Source of the DNA: Clostridiales bacterium
GTDB lineage: Bacteria > Bacillota > Clostridia > Oscillospirales > CAG-272
Assembly (NCBI GenBank): GCA_019415985.1
Contig: DXYE01000055.1
Location: 1 to 17,580, forward strand
DNA: 17,580 nt
Direction of reading: 5' to 3'
The notes beneath the pieces are model-generated. The model ran no database searches, was not told where the DNA came from, and saw only the letters and a program-made list of their open reading frames with translations. Both the position numbers and the translations under genes were made by a program. Positions 3,729 through 6,560 of the stretch are shown here, piece by piece (the stretch's first letter is position 1; each line of letters starts with the position of its first letter).

Positions 3729-4982
3729 ATGTCCTCTTACAGCGAGTTGATTAAGAATTTTGAAAAGATCCGCAGCTATATGCGCGAGTTTTATGTATAC
3801 GGCTTTAAGAGCCGGGAGGATTACGACAAAAAGAGCGCACGTTCTTACGATGATGAGCGTCGCCGCATGGAAAGCTGGCTTGGCAATCATATGAGTTTTA
3901 TACGAACACCGGAAGGTAAGACCATGTTCATCTCCATTGACAGCCGGGTGTCCCATCACAATCCTCTATATAAAGCCCTGAAGGCAAAGAGCTTTACCGA
4001 CAGAGACATTACGCTTCATTTCATCCTATTCGATATTCTGCATAGCCCCGATGTGAGCCTTTCGCTGCCCGAAATTCTGAATCGACTCGATTCTTATTTG
4101 TCCGAATTTGAAGCGATGATGGTTTTCGATGAGTCAACCCTAAGAAAGAAACTAAAGGAGTACATCGAACAGGGCGTCATTACCGCTGAAAAGGTCGGCA
4201 GAAAAATGATGTACCGAAGAGCAGAGAACACCGAAATCGGAAATCTTGGTGATGTTCTGCATTATTATTCCGAGGTTGCCCCGTGCGGCGTGATCGGTTC
4301 TTTTCTTCTTGATAAAGAGGACAAGGACGGATCTCTTTTCAGTTTTAAGCATCATTACATAACCGGCGCCATAGATAGCAATGTGCTGGCAATGCTTTTT
4401 ACGGCCATGCAAAAGAAAAGCGTTGTCACCGTATCCAATTTCAGCCGACGAGCCGACGAGCCGAGAAGAAACCGAATCATTCCGCTTCGTATTTTCATCA
4501 GCGTGCAAAACGGCAGGCAATACCTTCTTGCGTATCAGCCCGACTTCAACGTGATCAAATCCTTCCGTATTGATTACCTATCGGATGTAAAAATTGAAGA
4601 ACGTACGCCCCGTTTTGATGAGCTGCGGGCTGAGCTTGTTAGGATGCAGCCGAAAATGTGGGGTGTTACCGCAAAGAAGAACCGATACGGCGAAGAGCGG
4701 GTGGAGCACGTAGATTTTACCGTAAAGATCGGTAAGGGAGAGGCATATATTATCCGCCGTCTTGAGCGAGAGAAGCGAAACGGTAAGGTAGAGAAGATTG
4801 ATGATCAAACCTGGCGTTTTACCGCCGATGTGTACGATACAAGCGAAATGATTCCGTGGATTCGCACATTCATTTGCAGAATCACGAAACTGAATTTCTC
4901 CAACCGAACTGTTGAAAATCAATTCAAGCGTGACCTTGCAGAGATGTACCGTATGTATGGTATCGGGGAGGCGGAAGTTTGA
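3729..4982 (+). CDS. WYL domain-containing transcriptional regulator (HTH-WYL-WCX architecture, PafB/PafC/BrxR/CapW-like) with a ~100 aa N-terminal extension
   Basis: Winged-helix segment LPEILNRLDSYLSEF...STLRKKLKEYIEQGVITAEKVGRKMMYRR. WYL-like core RIIPLRIFISVQNGRQYLLAYQPDFNVIKSFRIDYL. C-terminal WCX-like tail EMIPWIRTFICRITKLNFSNRTVENQFKRDLAEMYRMYG. Best start is ATG 3729, where GGGGGTG lies 6 nt upstream; the ORF track used GTG 3720. Confidence 0.6.
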   Translation: MSSYSELIKNFEKIRSYMREFYVYGFKSREDYDKKSARSYDDERRRMESWLGNHMSFIRTPEGKTMFISIDSRVSHHNPLYKALKAKSFTDRDITLHFILFDILHSPDVSLSLPEILNRLDSYLSEFEAMMVFDESTLRKKLKEYIEQGVITAEKVGRKMMYRRAENTEIGNLGDVLHYYSEVAPCGVIGSFLLDKEDKDGSLFSFKHHYITGAIDSNVLAMLFTAMQKKSVVTVSNFSRRADEPRRNRIIPLRIFISVQNGRQYLLAYQPDFNVIKSFRIDYLSDVKIEERTPRFDELRAELVRMQPKMWGVTAKKNRYGEERVEHVDFTVKIGKGEAYIIRRLEREKRNGKVEKIDDQTWRFTADVYDTSEMIPWIRTFICRITKLNFSNRTVENQFKRDLAEMYRMYGIGEAEV

Positions 4983-4994
4983 AAGATTTATCTT

Positions 4995-6020
4995 TTGAAG
5001 CCTGTTTTGTGCATTTCTCCGCCCAAGTGGGCAGCGATTTTGCTTGGTAATCCCCACACAATACCGAAAGAAGGATGCTTTCGCTACACGAAAGCTATGG
5101 TCATAGGAATGATATTCAATGAGATCTATTCTGCCTACTATAATACTGTTGCAAAGGTTATTTCAGAGATCCTCGACGGGAACATTTCGGAAAAGGATCT
5201 GAACCGAATCGTTTGCGACAATGCTTTCGGTGAGAGCATACTCACCATCCTTCCATCTCTGAAAAACGGGAAGTGGCCGTTGATCAAGTCCGATATGACC
5301 ACGCCTCTGAAGCACAAGCCCTCCATGCCCCTGACGCTTATTCAAAAGCAGTGGCTGAAGGCAGTATCTCTTGACCCACGTATCAGACTTTTTGGCGTGG
5401 AATTTCATGGTCTCGACGATGTGGAACCGCTTTTCACTTCTGAGGATTACGTGGTTTACGATAAATACGGAGACGGCGATCCTTATTGGGATGAAGAATA
5501 TATTGCAAGATTTCGTACGGTTTTGTCTGCTTTGAAGAACCAGAAGCCCTTAAAAATTACAACGGTCAATCGCAGGAGCAATTTGATTTCAATGAACGTT
5601 ATGCCAACAAGATTTGAATATTCCGAAAAGGATGATAAGTTCCGATTGATCTGTACCGGATGCCGGTACGGAGGCGTTGTGAATCTTGCACGGATGGTTT
5701 CATGCGAAATTTGCACAGTCGCAGATTTTGAATGCCGTCCATCTGTCCAACCTATTAAAAAAACGATAACCCTTCGTATTCTCGATGACCGCAATGCTTT
5801 GGAACGTGCAATGCTTCACTTTGCACACTTTGAAAAGCAGGCAGAGCAAATCGACAGTACCCATTATCTTGTACGCATTCGATATGATAAAGACGATGAA
5901 ACTGAAATGGTGATTCGTATTTTGAGCTTTGGTCCGATGGTAGAGGTAATGGAGCCCGAGAGTTTCAGAAAATTGATAACGGATCGCCTACAAAGGCAGA
6001 AAAGCTGTGGACTTTTTTAA
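4995..6020 (+). CDS. Second WYL domain-containing regulator (WYL-WCX). The start codon is ambiguous: TTG 4995, TTG 5040, ATG 5097 or ATG 5109.
   Basis: WYL-like segment KITTVNRRSNLISMNVMPTRFEYSEKDDKFRLICTGCRYGGVVNLARMVSCEI. Very typical WCX C-terminus EMVIRILSFGPMVEVMEPESFRKLITDRLQRQ. The reading frame is the same as the upstream WYL ORF, and a single TGA (4980-4982) separates them. Confidence 0.55.
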   Translation: MKPVLCISPPKWAAILLGNPHTIPKEGCFRYTKAMVIGMIFNEIYSAYYNTVAKVISEILDGNISEKDLNRIVCDNAFGESILTILPSLKNGKWPLIKSDMTTPLKHKPSMPLTLIQKQWLKAVSLDPRIRLFGVEFHGLDDVEPLFTSEDYVVYDKYGDGDPYWDEEYIARFRTVLSALKNQKPLKITTVNRRSNLISMNVMPTRFEYSEKDDKFRLICTGCRYGGVVNLARMVSCEICTVADFECRPSVQPIKKTITLRILDDRNALERAMLHFAHFEKQAEQIDSTHYLVRIRYDKDDETEMVIRILSFGPMVEVMEPESFRKLITDRLQRQKSCGLF

Positions 6021-6037
6021 GTTCGCAGCTTTTTTTC
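6001..6037 (+). terminator. Possible weak intrinsic terminator or first hairpin of the downstream structured region
   Basis: aaagctg (6001-6007) pairs with cagcttt (6026-6032) as a 7 bp stem. The 18 nt loop contains the stop codon. A T tract runs 6030-6036. Confidence 0.3.
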
Positions 6038-6170
6038 CGTGTTTATTGCTTTATAAACTGGTAAAATATGCTTGCAAGGACGCTTCAAGCGTGTGTTTGA
6101 GATCAACTTTCACCGCGGTACACCTGGCTATGCCGACGTGTATGCCAGAAGTTTCTCTTGCTCCGTGAAA

Positions 6171-6342
6171 TCGAGAAAGAGTGAAAGCTCTCGAATCGAT
6201 GGGGTCAACTCCCCAAAAGGACCTGACAAGTCCGTCTAGCGCGGGTTCGAGTCCCGCCGTATGCAATGAAAGCATATCGCCAGTGGTTTGGTAGCGCCGG
6301 AAACGGCAAAAAAGCGGTGTGCGAAAGCACGCGAGATCGTTT
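6171..6342 (+). ncRNA. Candidate structured ncRNA with a tRNA-like module (anticodon-arm-like hairpin, perfect T-arm, downstream GNRA hairpins, T-run)
   Basis: Hairpins: cgaga-N12-tctcg (6171-6194); gggg-tcaact-cccc (6201-6214); ggac-ctgacaa-gtcc (6219-6233, a 7 nt loop with U33 and a 37-purine, anticodon-like GAC); T-arm gcggg-TTCGAGT-cccgc (6241-6257) matching the tRNA T-loop consensus; tatgc-aatgaaa-gcata (6260-6276); gccg-GAAA-cggc; tgtgc-GAAA-gcacg; then TTTTTT at 6337-6342. No convincing ORF. A canonical cloverleaf (acceptor stem, D-arm) cannot be completed. Confidence 0.3.
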
Positions 6343-6560
6343 TTTAATCTCAAAGCAATTGCTCGGCAGAACGCGAAGGAAATATTCTTTTGTCGAAGCA
6401 ATGCACCATCTGCCTTGTCTGAGAATGGATACCGTGAATCAAACAGACAAACCAAAAGAAAGTCTTTCCGTTTGCTTGTGAGACCACTCAAGTTTTTGGC
6501 CGCAGGTCGTGCATGAGCAATTGCAAACCGTATTTTGACCTTCAGGAGGTATTACATATA

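What the first reader, a model, noticed from the sequence alone, without database searches (positions are those of the whole stretch)
4960..5115. The two WYL-regulator ORFs are in the same frame and separated by a single TGA; the start of the second is undefined
Seen in sequence: the first WYL ORF stops at TGA 4980-4982. The reading frame reopens at once in the same frame (TTG 4995) and runs to 6020. The first in-frame ATG (5097) is ~115 nt further on, has only a weak GAAAG upstream, and the ATG at 5109 has no SD spacing. Each half carries its own WYL core and a WCX-like C-terminus, which is the PafB/PafC arrangement. Established knowledge: pafB and pafC are separate adjacent genes in mycobacteria, but they occur as one natural fusion protein (PafBC) in many other bacteria. 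Three readings are possible: (i) two genes, the second using a non-ATG start or translational coupling; (ii) an ancestral fused PafBC-like gene split by a nonsense mutation or a sequencing error; (iii) low-level TGA read-through giving a fused two-WYL protein alongside the short one. The same-frame arrangement has a 1/3 chance a priori, so it is only suggestive.
Basis: seen in the sequence. Interest (0 to 1): 0.55.

Follow-up and report, generated by a model that had tools for sequence, protein, structure and literature searches.

The report
Insertion splits a coupled WYL regulator pair
The two WYL-regulator genes are separate genes that overlap by four bases (ATGA) in almost every related species; here a species-specific 130-base insertion pushed them apart and, by arithmetic alone, into the same reading frame, so this is neither a broken fusion gene nor a read-through signal.

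Summary
wylA (3729-4982) ends at TGA 4980-4982. The same frame stays open from 4983 into wylB, which ends at 6020.

- **Ancestral state:** in 73 of 78 orthologous loci from other species, the wylA stop and the wylB start overlap as NTGA. The genes there are in different frames, and a GGAGG Shine-Dalgarno sits inside the wylA tail.
- **The window:** it is nested in that clade but carries a 130-nt orphan insert (4979-5108) between the old junction (now TTGA) and the true start ATGA at 5109.
- **Start of wylB:** 118 of 120 homologues begin MIF(N)EIY, which is ATG 5109 (303 aa).
- **The 42 open codons:** they are not coding-like and have no homologue outside this species. The TGA and the insert are identical or nearly so in 11 independent contigs.
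- **Consequence:** wylB has lost its Shine-Dalgarno, so how it is translated is unresolved.
- **PafB/PafC analogy:** it holds at fold level, and natural single-chain fusions exist in sister clades.

The pair sits upstream of a conserved operator/promoter motif, a structured tRNA-like leader and SPFH-rtcB. It is therefore probably an RNA-repair regulator. The finding itself is ordinary; the context is more interesting.

The parts
3729..4982 (+). wylA: first regulator gene, 417 aa. Layout: conserved N-terminal region, winged HTH (about residues 91-164), WYL (about 222-292), WCX (about 326-409). Stop is TGA 4980-4982.
4443..4458 (+). 8-nt tandem repeat AGCCGACG x2 inside wylA. Loss of one unit frameshifts wylA to a 278-aa truncated product in a major strain lineage of the same species.
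   Evidence: Cluster members P0254 and P0255 (278 aa, 14 contigs) against the intact 417-aa form. The 8-nt deletion at 4443-4450 is seen in L092-L095.
4965..4971 (+). GGGGAGG: the ancestral Shine-Dalgarno of wylB, embedded in the last codons of wylA. It is now 137 nt from the wylB start.
   Evidence: Orthologues have GGAGG 5-9 nt before the ATGA overlap. Duplex dG is -11.4 here; a sample of 19 orthologues averages -14.2.
4979..4982 (+). TTGA: the position of the ancestral ATGA stop/start overlap. It still supplies the wylA stop (TGA). The former start codon position now reads TTG.
   Evidence: Junction comparison with 25 orthologues. 73 of 78 loci have the NTGA overlap.
4979..5108 (+). Lineage-specific orphan insert. 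It is 130 nt, or equivalently a 126-nt spacer (4983-5108) flanked by an imperfect 4-nt duplication, TTGA on the left and ATGA on the right. It shifts wylB by 130 nt (130 mod 3 = 1), which puts both genes in one frame.
   Evidence: Absent from all sampled orthologous species and present in all 11 same-species contigs. No other copy in the window, 99 loci, phages, plasmids or JGI metagenomes. No Rfam family. Folding z-score -0.57. Not coding-like.
4979..5050 (+). Possible 23-codon upstream ORF (TTG 4979 to TAA 5048-5050) that now lies behind the old Shine-Dalgarno. This is an inference only.
   Evidence: It is the only start-like codon with a strong SD in 4960-5130 (dG -11.4, spacing 5). Frame-2 stop at 5048.
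4995..5108 (+). In-frame, stop-free extension chosen by some gene callers (TTG 4995 giving 341 aa; ATG 5097 giving 307 aa). Judged non-coding.
   Evidence: No homologue outside the species. Codon score 1.2, which is in the bottom 5.7% of real coding windows and is exceeded by 34% of open non-coding windows. Weak SDs. Gene-caller choices in the species: 341 aa on 16 contigs, 303 aa on 15, 307 aa on 1.
5109..6020 (+). wylB: second regulator gene, 303 aa, starting MIFNEIYSAYYN. It has a divergent WYL and a WCX. Its ATGA start motif is retained.
6000..6036 (+). Intrinsic terminator of the wylAB unit. The 13-bp stem is formed by the last wylB codons and the invariant GTTCGCAGCTTTT, followed by a T-run.
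   Evidence: Read directly from the sequence. The 3' arm is invariant in 16 of 16 aligned orthologues.
6021..6067 (+). Conserved composite motif GTTCGCAGnTTTTTTTCCnnG, then 17 nt, then TGnTAnnAT. Probably the operator plus extended -10 promoter of the downstream RNA-repair operon.
   Evidence: Occurs in 67 of 99 loci (once each, twice in L067), always on the + strand and with the first copy just after the WYL gene(s). This includes Hen1-Pnkp loci, where it is separate from the regulator's own terminator. Unique in the window.

Best explanation
wylA (3729-4982) and wylB (5109-6020) are two separate genes. They encode the two halves of a PafB/PafC-like heteromeric HTH-WYL-WCX transcription regulator.

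In the ancestor, as in almost every related species today, the genes overlapped by four bases (ATGA). The wylB Shine-Dalgarno (GGAGG) lay inside the last wylA codons, so wylB was made by translational coupling from a different frame.

In this species a 130-nt sequence of unknown origin was inserted exactly at that overlap. The stop (TGA) was kept on the left as TTGA, and the start was kept on the right as ATGA. Because 130 leaves remainder 1 on division by 3, the two genes now share a frame. The insert happens to contain no stop in that frame.

The resulting long ORF from TTG 4995 is an artefact. The real wylB start remains ATG 5109.

The insertion removed wylB from its Shine-Dalgarno. I infer that WylB is now made less efficiently. 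My rough split is:
- about 0.5: weak direct initiation at ATG 5109 or 5097;
- about 0.3: re-initiation after termination of wylA or of short upstream ORFs;
- about 0.15: re-initiation at TTG 4995, giving a 38-aa N-terminal extension.

Functionally, I infer that the pair binds the conserved operator at 6021-6041. That operator sits next to an extended -10 promoter, which would control the structured leader and the SPFH-rtcB RNA-repair operon.

**Shown:** gene boundaries, ancestral overlap, insertion, fold class, conserved synteny and motif. **Inferred:** heterodimer formation, regulatory target, and the present mode of wylB translation.
For: - **Ancestral overlap.** In 73 of 78 orthologous loci the wylA TGA begins 1 nt after the wylB start codon. 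The junctions read ...GAGGAGGTGGAnGT-ATGA-TATTCAA....
- **Insertion.** The window matches these junctions up to GGAAGT (4978) and again from ATGATATTC (5109), with 130 extra bases between.
- **Derived state.** An NJ tree of concatenated WylA+WylB places the window deep inside the overlap clade, sister to L002 and L001. Fused forms lie outside.
- **Start of wylB.** 118 of 120 homologues start MIF.E.Y and are 301-309 aa, nearly all 302-303.
- **Not an error.** The insert and the TGA are present in 11 same-species contigs from different samples. Two SNPs in one strain rule out an assembly or sequencing artefact.
- **Non-coding extension.** It has no homologue and is not coding-like. It would make a hydrophobic, Cys/Trp-rich 51-residue linker, unlike the hydrophilic 31-69-residue linkers of natural fusions.
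- **Lost Shine-Dalgarno.** Duplex energies.
- **Fold class.**
- **Natural fusions.** They support physical interaction of the two halves. The PafBC precedent is in PMC6789036.
- **Regulatory target.** SPFH and/or RtcB lie downstream in 49 of 55 loci with enough sequence. Hen1-Pnkp lies downstream of fused forms. The operator/promoter motif is found in 67 of 99 loci.
Against: - There are no expression data, so the start codon actually used in this organism is inferred from homology only.
- wylB is intact and still conserved (2 of 89 near-invariant columns changed, rank 9 of 71). It must therefore be translated somehow, yet no candidate start has a proper SD.
- Gene callers pick TTG 4995 on 16 contigs.
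- A same-frame, stop-free 42-codon spacer has only about a 3% prior probability.
- The source of the insert is unknown. It has no terminal inverted repeats and no second copy was found, so the insertion mechanism is unexplained.
- The direction of fusion versus split at the root of the family is not resolved, because the tree was rooted at its midpoint only.
Confidence: 0.8

Rival explanations
1. N-terminally extended WylB. After terminating at TGA 4982, ribosomes re-initiate 12 nt downstream at TTG 4995. The product is a 341-aa WylB with a new 38-residue N-terminal extension encoded by the insert.
For: The frame is open from 4983. TTG 4995 lies close to the wylA stop and 23 nt (start-to-start 30 nt) downstream of the strong relic SD. 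Gene callers choose it on 16 contigs. The extension stays open in all 11 same-species contigs.
Against: SD duplex is only -4.9 kcal/mol. The extension has no homologue in more than 6000 family members. Its codon score is typical of open non-coding sequence. One of the two strain SNPs in it is non-synonymous, Cys to Trp. The strains are too similar (99.8% identity) for openness to indicate selection.
Confidence: 0.12
2. Low-level TGA read-through (or recoding) produces a single-chain WylA-linker-WylB protein alongside WylA, mimicking the natural fusions.
For: Same frame with a single stop. Natural fusions with linkers of 31-69 residues exist, and the would-be linker here is 51 residues. wylA's is the only TGA among 12 stop codons in the window.
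Against: The context is UGA-A, not the leaky UGA-C. The hairpin over the stop is -4.3 kcal/mol, z -1.65, and there is no significant downstream structure. No Rfam element. TGA at this position is forced by the conserved Met-Ile (ATG-AT.) start of wylB in all orthologues, where it clearly terminates wylA in another frame. There is no in-frame TGA in conserved genes of the window, so genetic code 11 applies. The would-be linker is hydrophobic and Cys/Trp-rich, unlike real linkers.
Confidence: 0.03
3. An ancestral fused gene was recently split by a nonsense mutation, or the TGA is a sequencing error.
For: Fused homologues exist. The frames coincide.
Against: The TGA is identical in 11 contigs from different samples. 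The nearest 70 sampled species are split, nearly all with a 4-nt overlap. The wylA C-terminus (..MYRMYGIGEAEV) is the canonical split-form end. The spacer is unrelated to fused linkers.
Confidence: 0.01
4. The regulator locus is decaying in this species. The insertion effectively silenced wylB, and the system is on its way to becoming a pseudogene. This is compatible with the main explanation as its extreme version.
For: The SD is lost. wylB evolves slightly faster than in sister species. In a major strain lineage wylA is frameshifted by loss of one 8-nt repeat unit. That lineage then accumulates 5 or 6 private SNPs in the roughly 530 nt after the frameshift, against 0-2 in the roughly 710 nt before it.
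Against: wylB has 303 intact codons in every strain, including the wylA-frameshift lineage, and keeps 87 of 89 near-invariant residues. wylA is intact and typical in the window strain, with 1 of 139 near-invariant columns changed. The operator, leader and SPFH-rtcB are all intact.
Confidence: 0.2

Closest known systems
PafB/PafC (PafBC), the actinobacterial WYL-domain DNA-damage-response activator
   Different: No detectable sequence orthology: a PDB profile search gives PafC E 1.8 for wylA and nothing for wylB. The organism is a Clostridia bacterium, not an actinobacterium. The locus is not at a proteasome locus. wylA has an extra conserved N-terminal region of about 90 aa, and wylB has a short helical N-terminus rather than a clear winged HTH. 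The linked genes are RNA-repair genes (SPFH-RtcB, Hen1-Pnkp), not DNA repair. The PafBC paper lists natural fusions only for actinobacterial PafB and PafC homologues.
Homodimeric HTH-WYL-WCX regulators: DriD, BrxR, CapW
   Different: Those are single genes acting as homodimers. Here two diverged paralogues are always paired, coupled or fused, which implies an obligate heteromer.
ATGA-type overlapping, translationally coupled gene pairs
   Same: 73 of 78 orthologous loci have the 4-nt stop/start overlap with the SD inside the upstream gene.
   Different: In the window the overlap has been split by 130 nt. The relic SD and TTGA are left behind, and the ATGA start has no SD.
RtcR-controlled rtcBA operon and the Y-RNA-like YrlA tRNA mimics of rsr-rtcBA operons
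   Same: A dedicated ligand-sensing regulator sits next to an RtcB operon. Structured RNA with a tRNA-like T-arm is encoded in the operon (PMC7790460; PMC4201824).
   Different: The regulator here is a WYL pair, not a CARF / sigma-54 enhancer-binding protein. There is no Ro60/Rsr gene. The leader is about 480 nt and matches no Rfam family, including the Y RNA families.

Membership tests
HTH-WYL-WCX transcription factors (class A of PMC6789036) | WYL domain with Sm-like beta-barrel fold | tested here: met
HTH-WYL-WCX transcription factors (class A of PMC6789036) | [quoted passage not shown] | tested here: met
HTH-WYL-WCX transcription factors (class A of PMC6789036) | [quoted passage not shown] | tested here: inconclusive
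PafB/PafC proper | Sequence orthology to actinobacterial PafB/PafC | tested here: not met
PafB/PafC proper | Association with the proteasome/Pup locus and a DNA-damage regulon | tested here: not met
   Neighbours are clpB upstream (not conserved) and SPFH-rtcB downstream, which is conserved in 49 of 55 loci.
PafB/PafC proper | Two paralogous modules encoded adjacently, or as a natural fusion, forming a heterodimer | tested here: met
   Adjacent and coupled in 73 of 78 loci. Fused in P0001, P0002, P0003, P0005-P0007 and P0009. Physical heterodimer formation is not testable with these tools.
Translationally coupled overlapping gene pair | Stop/start overlap (ATGA) with the SD inside the upstream gene | tested here: not met
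   Met in orthologues. In the window the stop and start are 126 nt apart and the SD is 137 nt from the start.
Programmed stop-codon read-through or selenocysteine recoding | Leaky stop context and/or stimulatory downstream structure, with the downstream extension conserved as protein | tested here: not met
   UGA-A context. Hairpin -4.3 kcal/mol, z -1.65, and downstream folds not better than shuffles. No Rfam hit. The extension has no homologue and is not coding-like.
MITE / IS-derived insertion | Terminal inverted repeats, target-site duplication, multiple copies | tested here: inconclusive
   A possible 3-4-nt duplication, (T/A)TGA, is seen in the sequence. No inverted termini by inspection. 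No second copy in 17.6 kb plus 99 loci, phages, plasmids or JGI metagenomes. The complete genome was not available.

The most novel reading that the evidence does not exclude
The arrangement could be a snapshot of gene fusion in progress. An insertion at the ATGA overlap has already put the two coupled WYL genes in one frame, with a stop-free spacer of 42 codons. The resulting 51-residue gap between conserved cores falls within the 31-69-residue range of natural fusion linkers. A single base change at TGA 4980, or occasional read-through, would then give a PafBC-like single-chain regulator. This would show how the natural fusions in sister clades arose from coupled pairs.
Probability: 0.06. 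Interest if true: 0.5.

Novelty: new member of a known kind. Interest (0 to 1): 0.3.

Why it matters
**For annotation.** wylB should start at ATG 5109 (303 aa) and wylA at ATG 3729 (417 aa). The 341-aa call found in public data is an artefact of an insertion.

**For biology.** The same-frame coincidence has no special meaning. The comparison it prompted does define a widespread, uncharacterised Clostridia system:
- an obligate pair (sometimes a fusion) of diverged HTH-WYL-WCX proteins;
- a strictly conserved operator/promoter motif;
- a structured leader of about 480 nt with a tRNA-like domain;
- RNA-repair genes (SPFH-RtcB, or Hen1-Pnkp).

If the pair senses damaged RNA, it would be the Firmicute counterpart of RtcR. 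It would also extend the PafBC principle from DNA damage to RNA damage.

This species carries two natural perturbations: the insertion that uncouples wylB, and an 8-nt repeat deletion that truncates wylA in many strains. These could serve as natural experiments.

Tried and rejected
- **Sequencing or assembly error at the TGA.** Rejected. The TGA and insert are the same in 11 contigs from different samples, and one strain has 2 SNPs inside the insert.
- **Alternative genetic code (TGA as sense).** Rejected. There is no in-frame TGA in ClpB, RpsB, Tsf or the other conserved genes, and the orthologues' wylA proteins end at the same residue.
- **Insert as a tandem duplication of flanking sequence.** Rejected. 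Local alignment to the 200 nt on either side, to the whole window on both strands and to 5 kb further upstream scores no better than shuffles.
- **Insert as a repeat or mobile element.** No other copy in the window and loci then held. None in phages or plasmids by blastn. None in JGI metagenomes with two exact probes. No inverted termini.
- **Insert as a known RNA.** No Rfam hit with E below 3. Folding z-score -0.57. No sigma-70-like promoter on the + strand.
- **Insert as coding sequence.** A first score looked coding-like, but that came from stop-codon penalties. Against open non-coding windows the score is unremarkable.
- **Homology of the would-be linker to fused-protein linkers.** None.
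- **Sequence search of PDB for wylB.** Nothing, so predicted fold was needed.
- **Contig breaks just left of the insert (L087-L090).** They sit at different positions (4951-4978). Strain SNPs are one possible cause; this was not tested and not pursued.
- **Literature.** The library held no paper linking WYL pairs with RtcB or Hen1-Pnkp. The Burroughs and Aravind 2016 survey of RNA-repair systems is not held, so prior description there cannot be excluded.
Full report
**1. Observation.**
The window is a Clostridia-type chromosome segment. Gene order is a 218-aa ORF, clpB, two WYL genes, SPFH, rtcB, dapF, an aminotransferase, rpsB and tsf.

The first WYL ORF ends at TGA 4980-4982. The same frame is open from 4983 to TAA 6018-6020. 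In-frame candidate starts are TTG 4995, ATG 5097 and ATG 5109.

The description is therefore correct. Forty-two stop-free codons have a 7-10% chance at this composition, and a shared frame has a 1/3 chance.

**2. Gene boundaries from homologues.**
I searched with the read-through product, putting X at the stop. This returned two kinds of relatives:
- many WylA-only proteins of 421-422 aa at 65-78% identity;
- a few full-length fusions of 738-809 aa at 46-52% identity and 99% coverage.

A search with the 341-aa ORF returned more than 6000 relatives. Of the best 120, 118 cover only the last 303 residues and begin MIF[NSDH]E[ILV]. That start is window ATG 5109. The only 341-aa hit is the same species at 99% identity.

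WylA homologues begin MSSYSELIKN or MAYNELIKNF. wylA therefore starts at ATG 3729 (SD -15.6 kcal/mol), not GTG 3720.

**3. The junction in other species.**
Eighty orthologous loci, each from a different GTDB species, were fetched. In 73 of the 78 that hold both genes, the wylA TGA begins one base after the wylB start codon. This is an NTGA overlap, with the genes in different frames.

The junctions read ...ATGTA(C/T)GG.AT.GAGGAGGTGGA.GT-ATGA-TATTCAA.GA... A GGAGG sits 5-9 nt before the start. In a sample of 19 of these loci, mean duplex energy with the 16S tail is -14.2 kcal/mol. This is textbook translational coupling.

The window matches this consensus up to GGAAGT (4978). It matches again from ATGATATTCAATGAG (5109). 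In between lie 130 bases found in no other species. The left border reads TTGA and the right border reads ATGA. The event can therefore be described as a 126-nt insertion flanked by an imperfect 4-nt duplication of the overlap. That duplication preserved both the stop and the start.

The ancestral offset between the frames was +1. Adding 130 nt (remainder 1 on division by 3) places both genes in one frame.

One other species (L068) has an independent 162-nt spacer at the same place. It also restores a common frame, but it contains an in-frame TGA.

**4. Polarity.**
An NJ tree of concatenated WylA+WylB was built from 70 species plus the window and seven fusions. It puts the window deep in the overlap clade, sister to L002 and L001, with the fusions outside. 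The spacer is therefore derived, not a relic of a fused ancestor.

The WylA C-terminus (..MYRMYGIGEAEV) is the canonical split-form end.

**5. Not an artefact.**
Eleven same-species contigs from different samples (L081, L086-L095) all carry the insert and the TGA. One strain has two SNPs in the insert.

**6. What the insert is not.**
- It has no second copy in the window, the fetched loci, phage or plasmid collections, or JGI metagenomes.
- It is not a duplicate of flanking DNA.
- It matches no Rfam family.
- It folds no better than shuffled sequence (z -0.57).
- It carries no sigma-70-like promoter on the + strand.
- Its 42 in-frame codons score 1.2 on a codon-usage log-odds trained on the window's 12 genes. 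That is in the bottom 5.7% of genuine coding windows and is exceeded by 34% of stop-free non-coding windows.
- The would-be linker is hydrophobic and Cys/Trp-rich. Natural fusion linkers of 31-69 residues are hydrophilic.
- The stop context is UGA-A. The hairpin that includes the stop is worth only -4.3 kcal/mol.

**7. Consequence for expression (inference).**
The old SD (GGGGAGG, 4965-4971) now precedes TTG 4979, which opens a 23-codon ORF ending at 5050.

No candidate wylB start has a usable SD: -6.6 (interrupted helix), -4.3 and -4.9 kcal/mol, against -8.7 to -15.6 for the window's 11 other genes.

wylB is nevertheless intact in every strain. It keeps 87 of 89 near-invariant residues, although it evolves slightly faster than in sister species. 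I therefore expect reduced WylB synthesis, either weak or dependent on re-initiation. The exact route needs experiment.

**8. What the proteins are.**

The strict pairing, the coupling and the occasional fusion argue for an obligate heteromer, as with PafB/PafC. For PafB/PafC, most actinobacteria have two genes and Arthrobacter has a natural fusion (PMC6789036). There is no sequence-level orthology to PafBC, and the genomic context differs. This system therefore works like PafBC but is not a member of that family.

**9. Likely target.**
- SPFH and/or RtcB follow the pair on the same strand in 49 of 55 loci with enough downstream sequence.
- Two fused relatives precede Hen1-Pnkp, and one precedes SPFH.
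- Immediately after the regulator lies the composite motif TCGCAGnTTTTTTTCCnnG, then 17 nt, then TGnTAnnAT. It occurs in 67 of 99 loci, once in 66 and twice in L067, always on the + strand.
- In the Hen1-Pnkp loci the motif is separate from the regulator's own terminator. It is therefore not conserved merely as a terminator arm. I read it as the operator plus an extended -10 promoter.

**10. Seen in passing.**
The roughly 540-nt gap between wylB and SPFH is 69-79% identical across species whose WylB proteins are about 60-73% identical to the window's. It contains hairpins with compensatory changes, including a tRNA T-arm look-alike GCGGGTTCGAGTCCCGC and a ...TCGCCA end. It matches no Rfam family.

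In a major strain lineage of this species, loss of one unit of an 8-nt tandem repeat (4443-4458) frameshifts wylA.

**11. Verdict.**
The same-frame, single-TGA arrangement is the accidental by-product of a 130-nt insertion into a canonical ATGA-coupled gene pair. The fusion-relic and read-through readings are not supported.

Noticed in passing
window 6075-6545 (hairpins at 6201-6214, 6219-6233, 6241-6257 and 6260-6276; TCGCCA at 6277-6282; GCAATTGCTC at 6355-6364 pairing with GAGCAATTGC at 6515-6524): The 'intergenic' region between wylB and SPFH is 69-79% identical over about 500-550 nt in eight orthologous species, and three blocks survive in more distant ones. It holds a tRNA-like domain: a T-arm look-alike GCGGGTTCGAGTCCCGC, an anticodon-arm-like hairpin and a ..TCGCCA end. 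RNAalifold finds 4 compensatory pairs, and a long-range helix shows covariation by eye. It matches no Rfam family, and ARAGORN finds no tRNA. It looks like an undescribed structured leader or ncRNA of the SPFH-rtcB operon, reminiscent of YrlA tRNA mimics.
   Followed up: partly
window 6021-6067: The composite motif GTTCGCAGnTTTTTTTCCnnG, then 17 nt, then TGnTAnnAT occurs in 67 of 99 related loci, once in each except L067, always on the + strand with the first copy just downstream of the WYL gene(s). This includes loci where the regulated genes are Hen1-Pnkp. It is probably the operator plus extended -10 promoter for the WYL pair.
   Followed up: partly
window 4443-4458 (compare L092-L095): wylA contains an 8-nt tandem repeat, AGCCGACG x2 plus a partial third copy. 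A widespread strain lineage (at least 14 contigs) has lost one unit. This truncates WylA to 278 aa without WYL or WCX. That lineage has 5 or 6 private SNPs in the roughly 530 nt after the frameshift, against 0-2 in the roughly 710 nt before it.
   Followed up: yes
L083-L085 and L098-L099 (fused gene followed by Hen1 and Pnkp); L082 (fused gene followed by the same leader RNA and Band_7): Single-chain WylA-WylB fusions from other Clostridia sit directly upstream of the Hen1-Pnkp RNA-repair module or of SPFH. This links the whole family to RNA repair rather than DNA repair.
   Followed up: partly
L068 1500-1665: An independent 162-nt spacer lies at the same wylA/wylB junction in another species. 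It is built from four units of a short GC-rich hairpin followed by AATAT(AT)CAC, and may be a small repeat element.
   Followed up: no
protein P0017 (636 aa, 154 member sequences): A shorter single-chain form appears to lack the WCX of the first half and the N-terminus of the second half. P0036 (715 aa) looks like a frameshifted fusion.
   Followed up: no
L087-L090 contig ends, corresponding to window 4951-4978: Four of six same-species contigs from different assemblies break within 30 nt to the left of the insert. The breaks are at different positions. Strain heterogeneity is one possible cause; a repeat boundary was not excluded. Unexplained.
   Followed up: no
window 6513 and 6561: The SPFH gene most likely starts at ATG 6561 (AGGAGG, dG -11.7), not at the first ATG 6513 (dG -6.2). 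Same-species gene calls differ, giving 366 or 382 aa.
   Followed up: partly
window, all 12 gene ends: Stop-codon usage is strongly skewed: 10 TAA, 1 TAG and 1 TGA. The single TGA is wylA's, and it is dictated by the Met-Ile start (ATG-AT.) of wylB in the ancestral overlap.
   Followed up: yes
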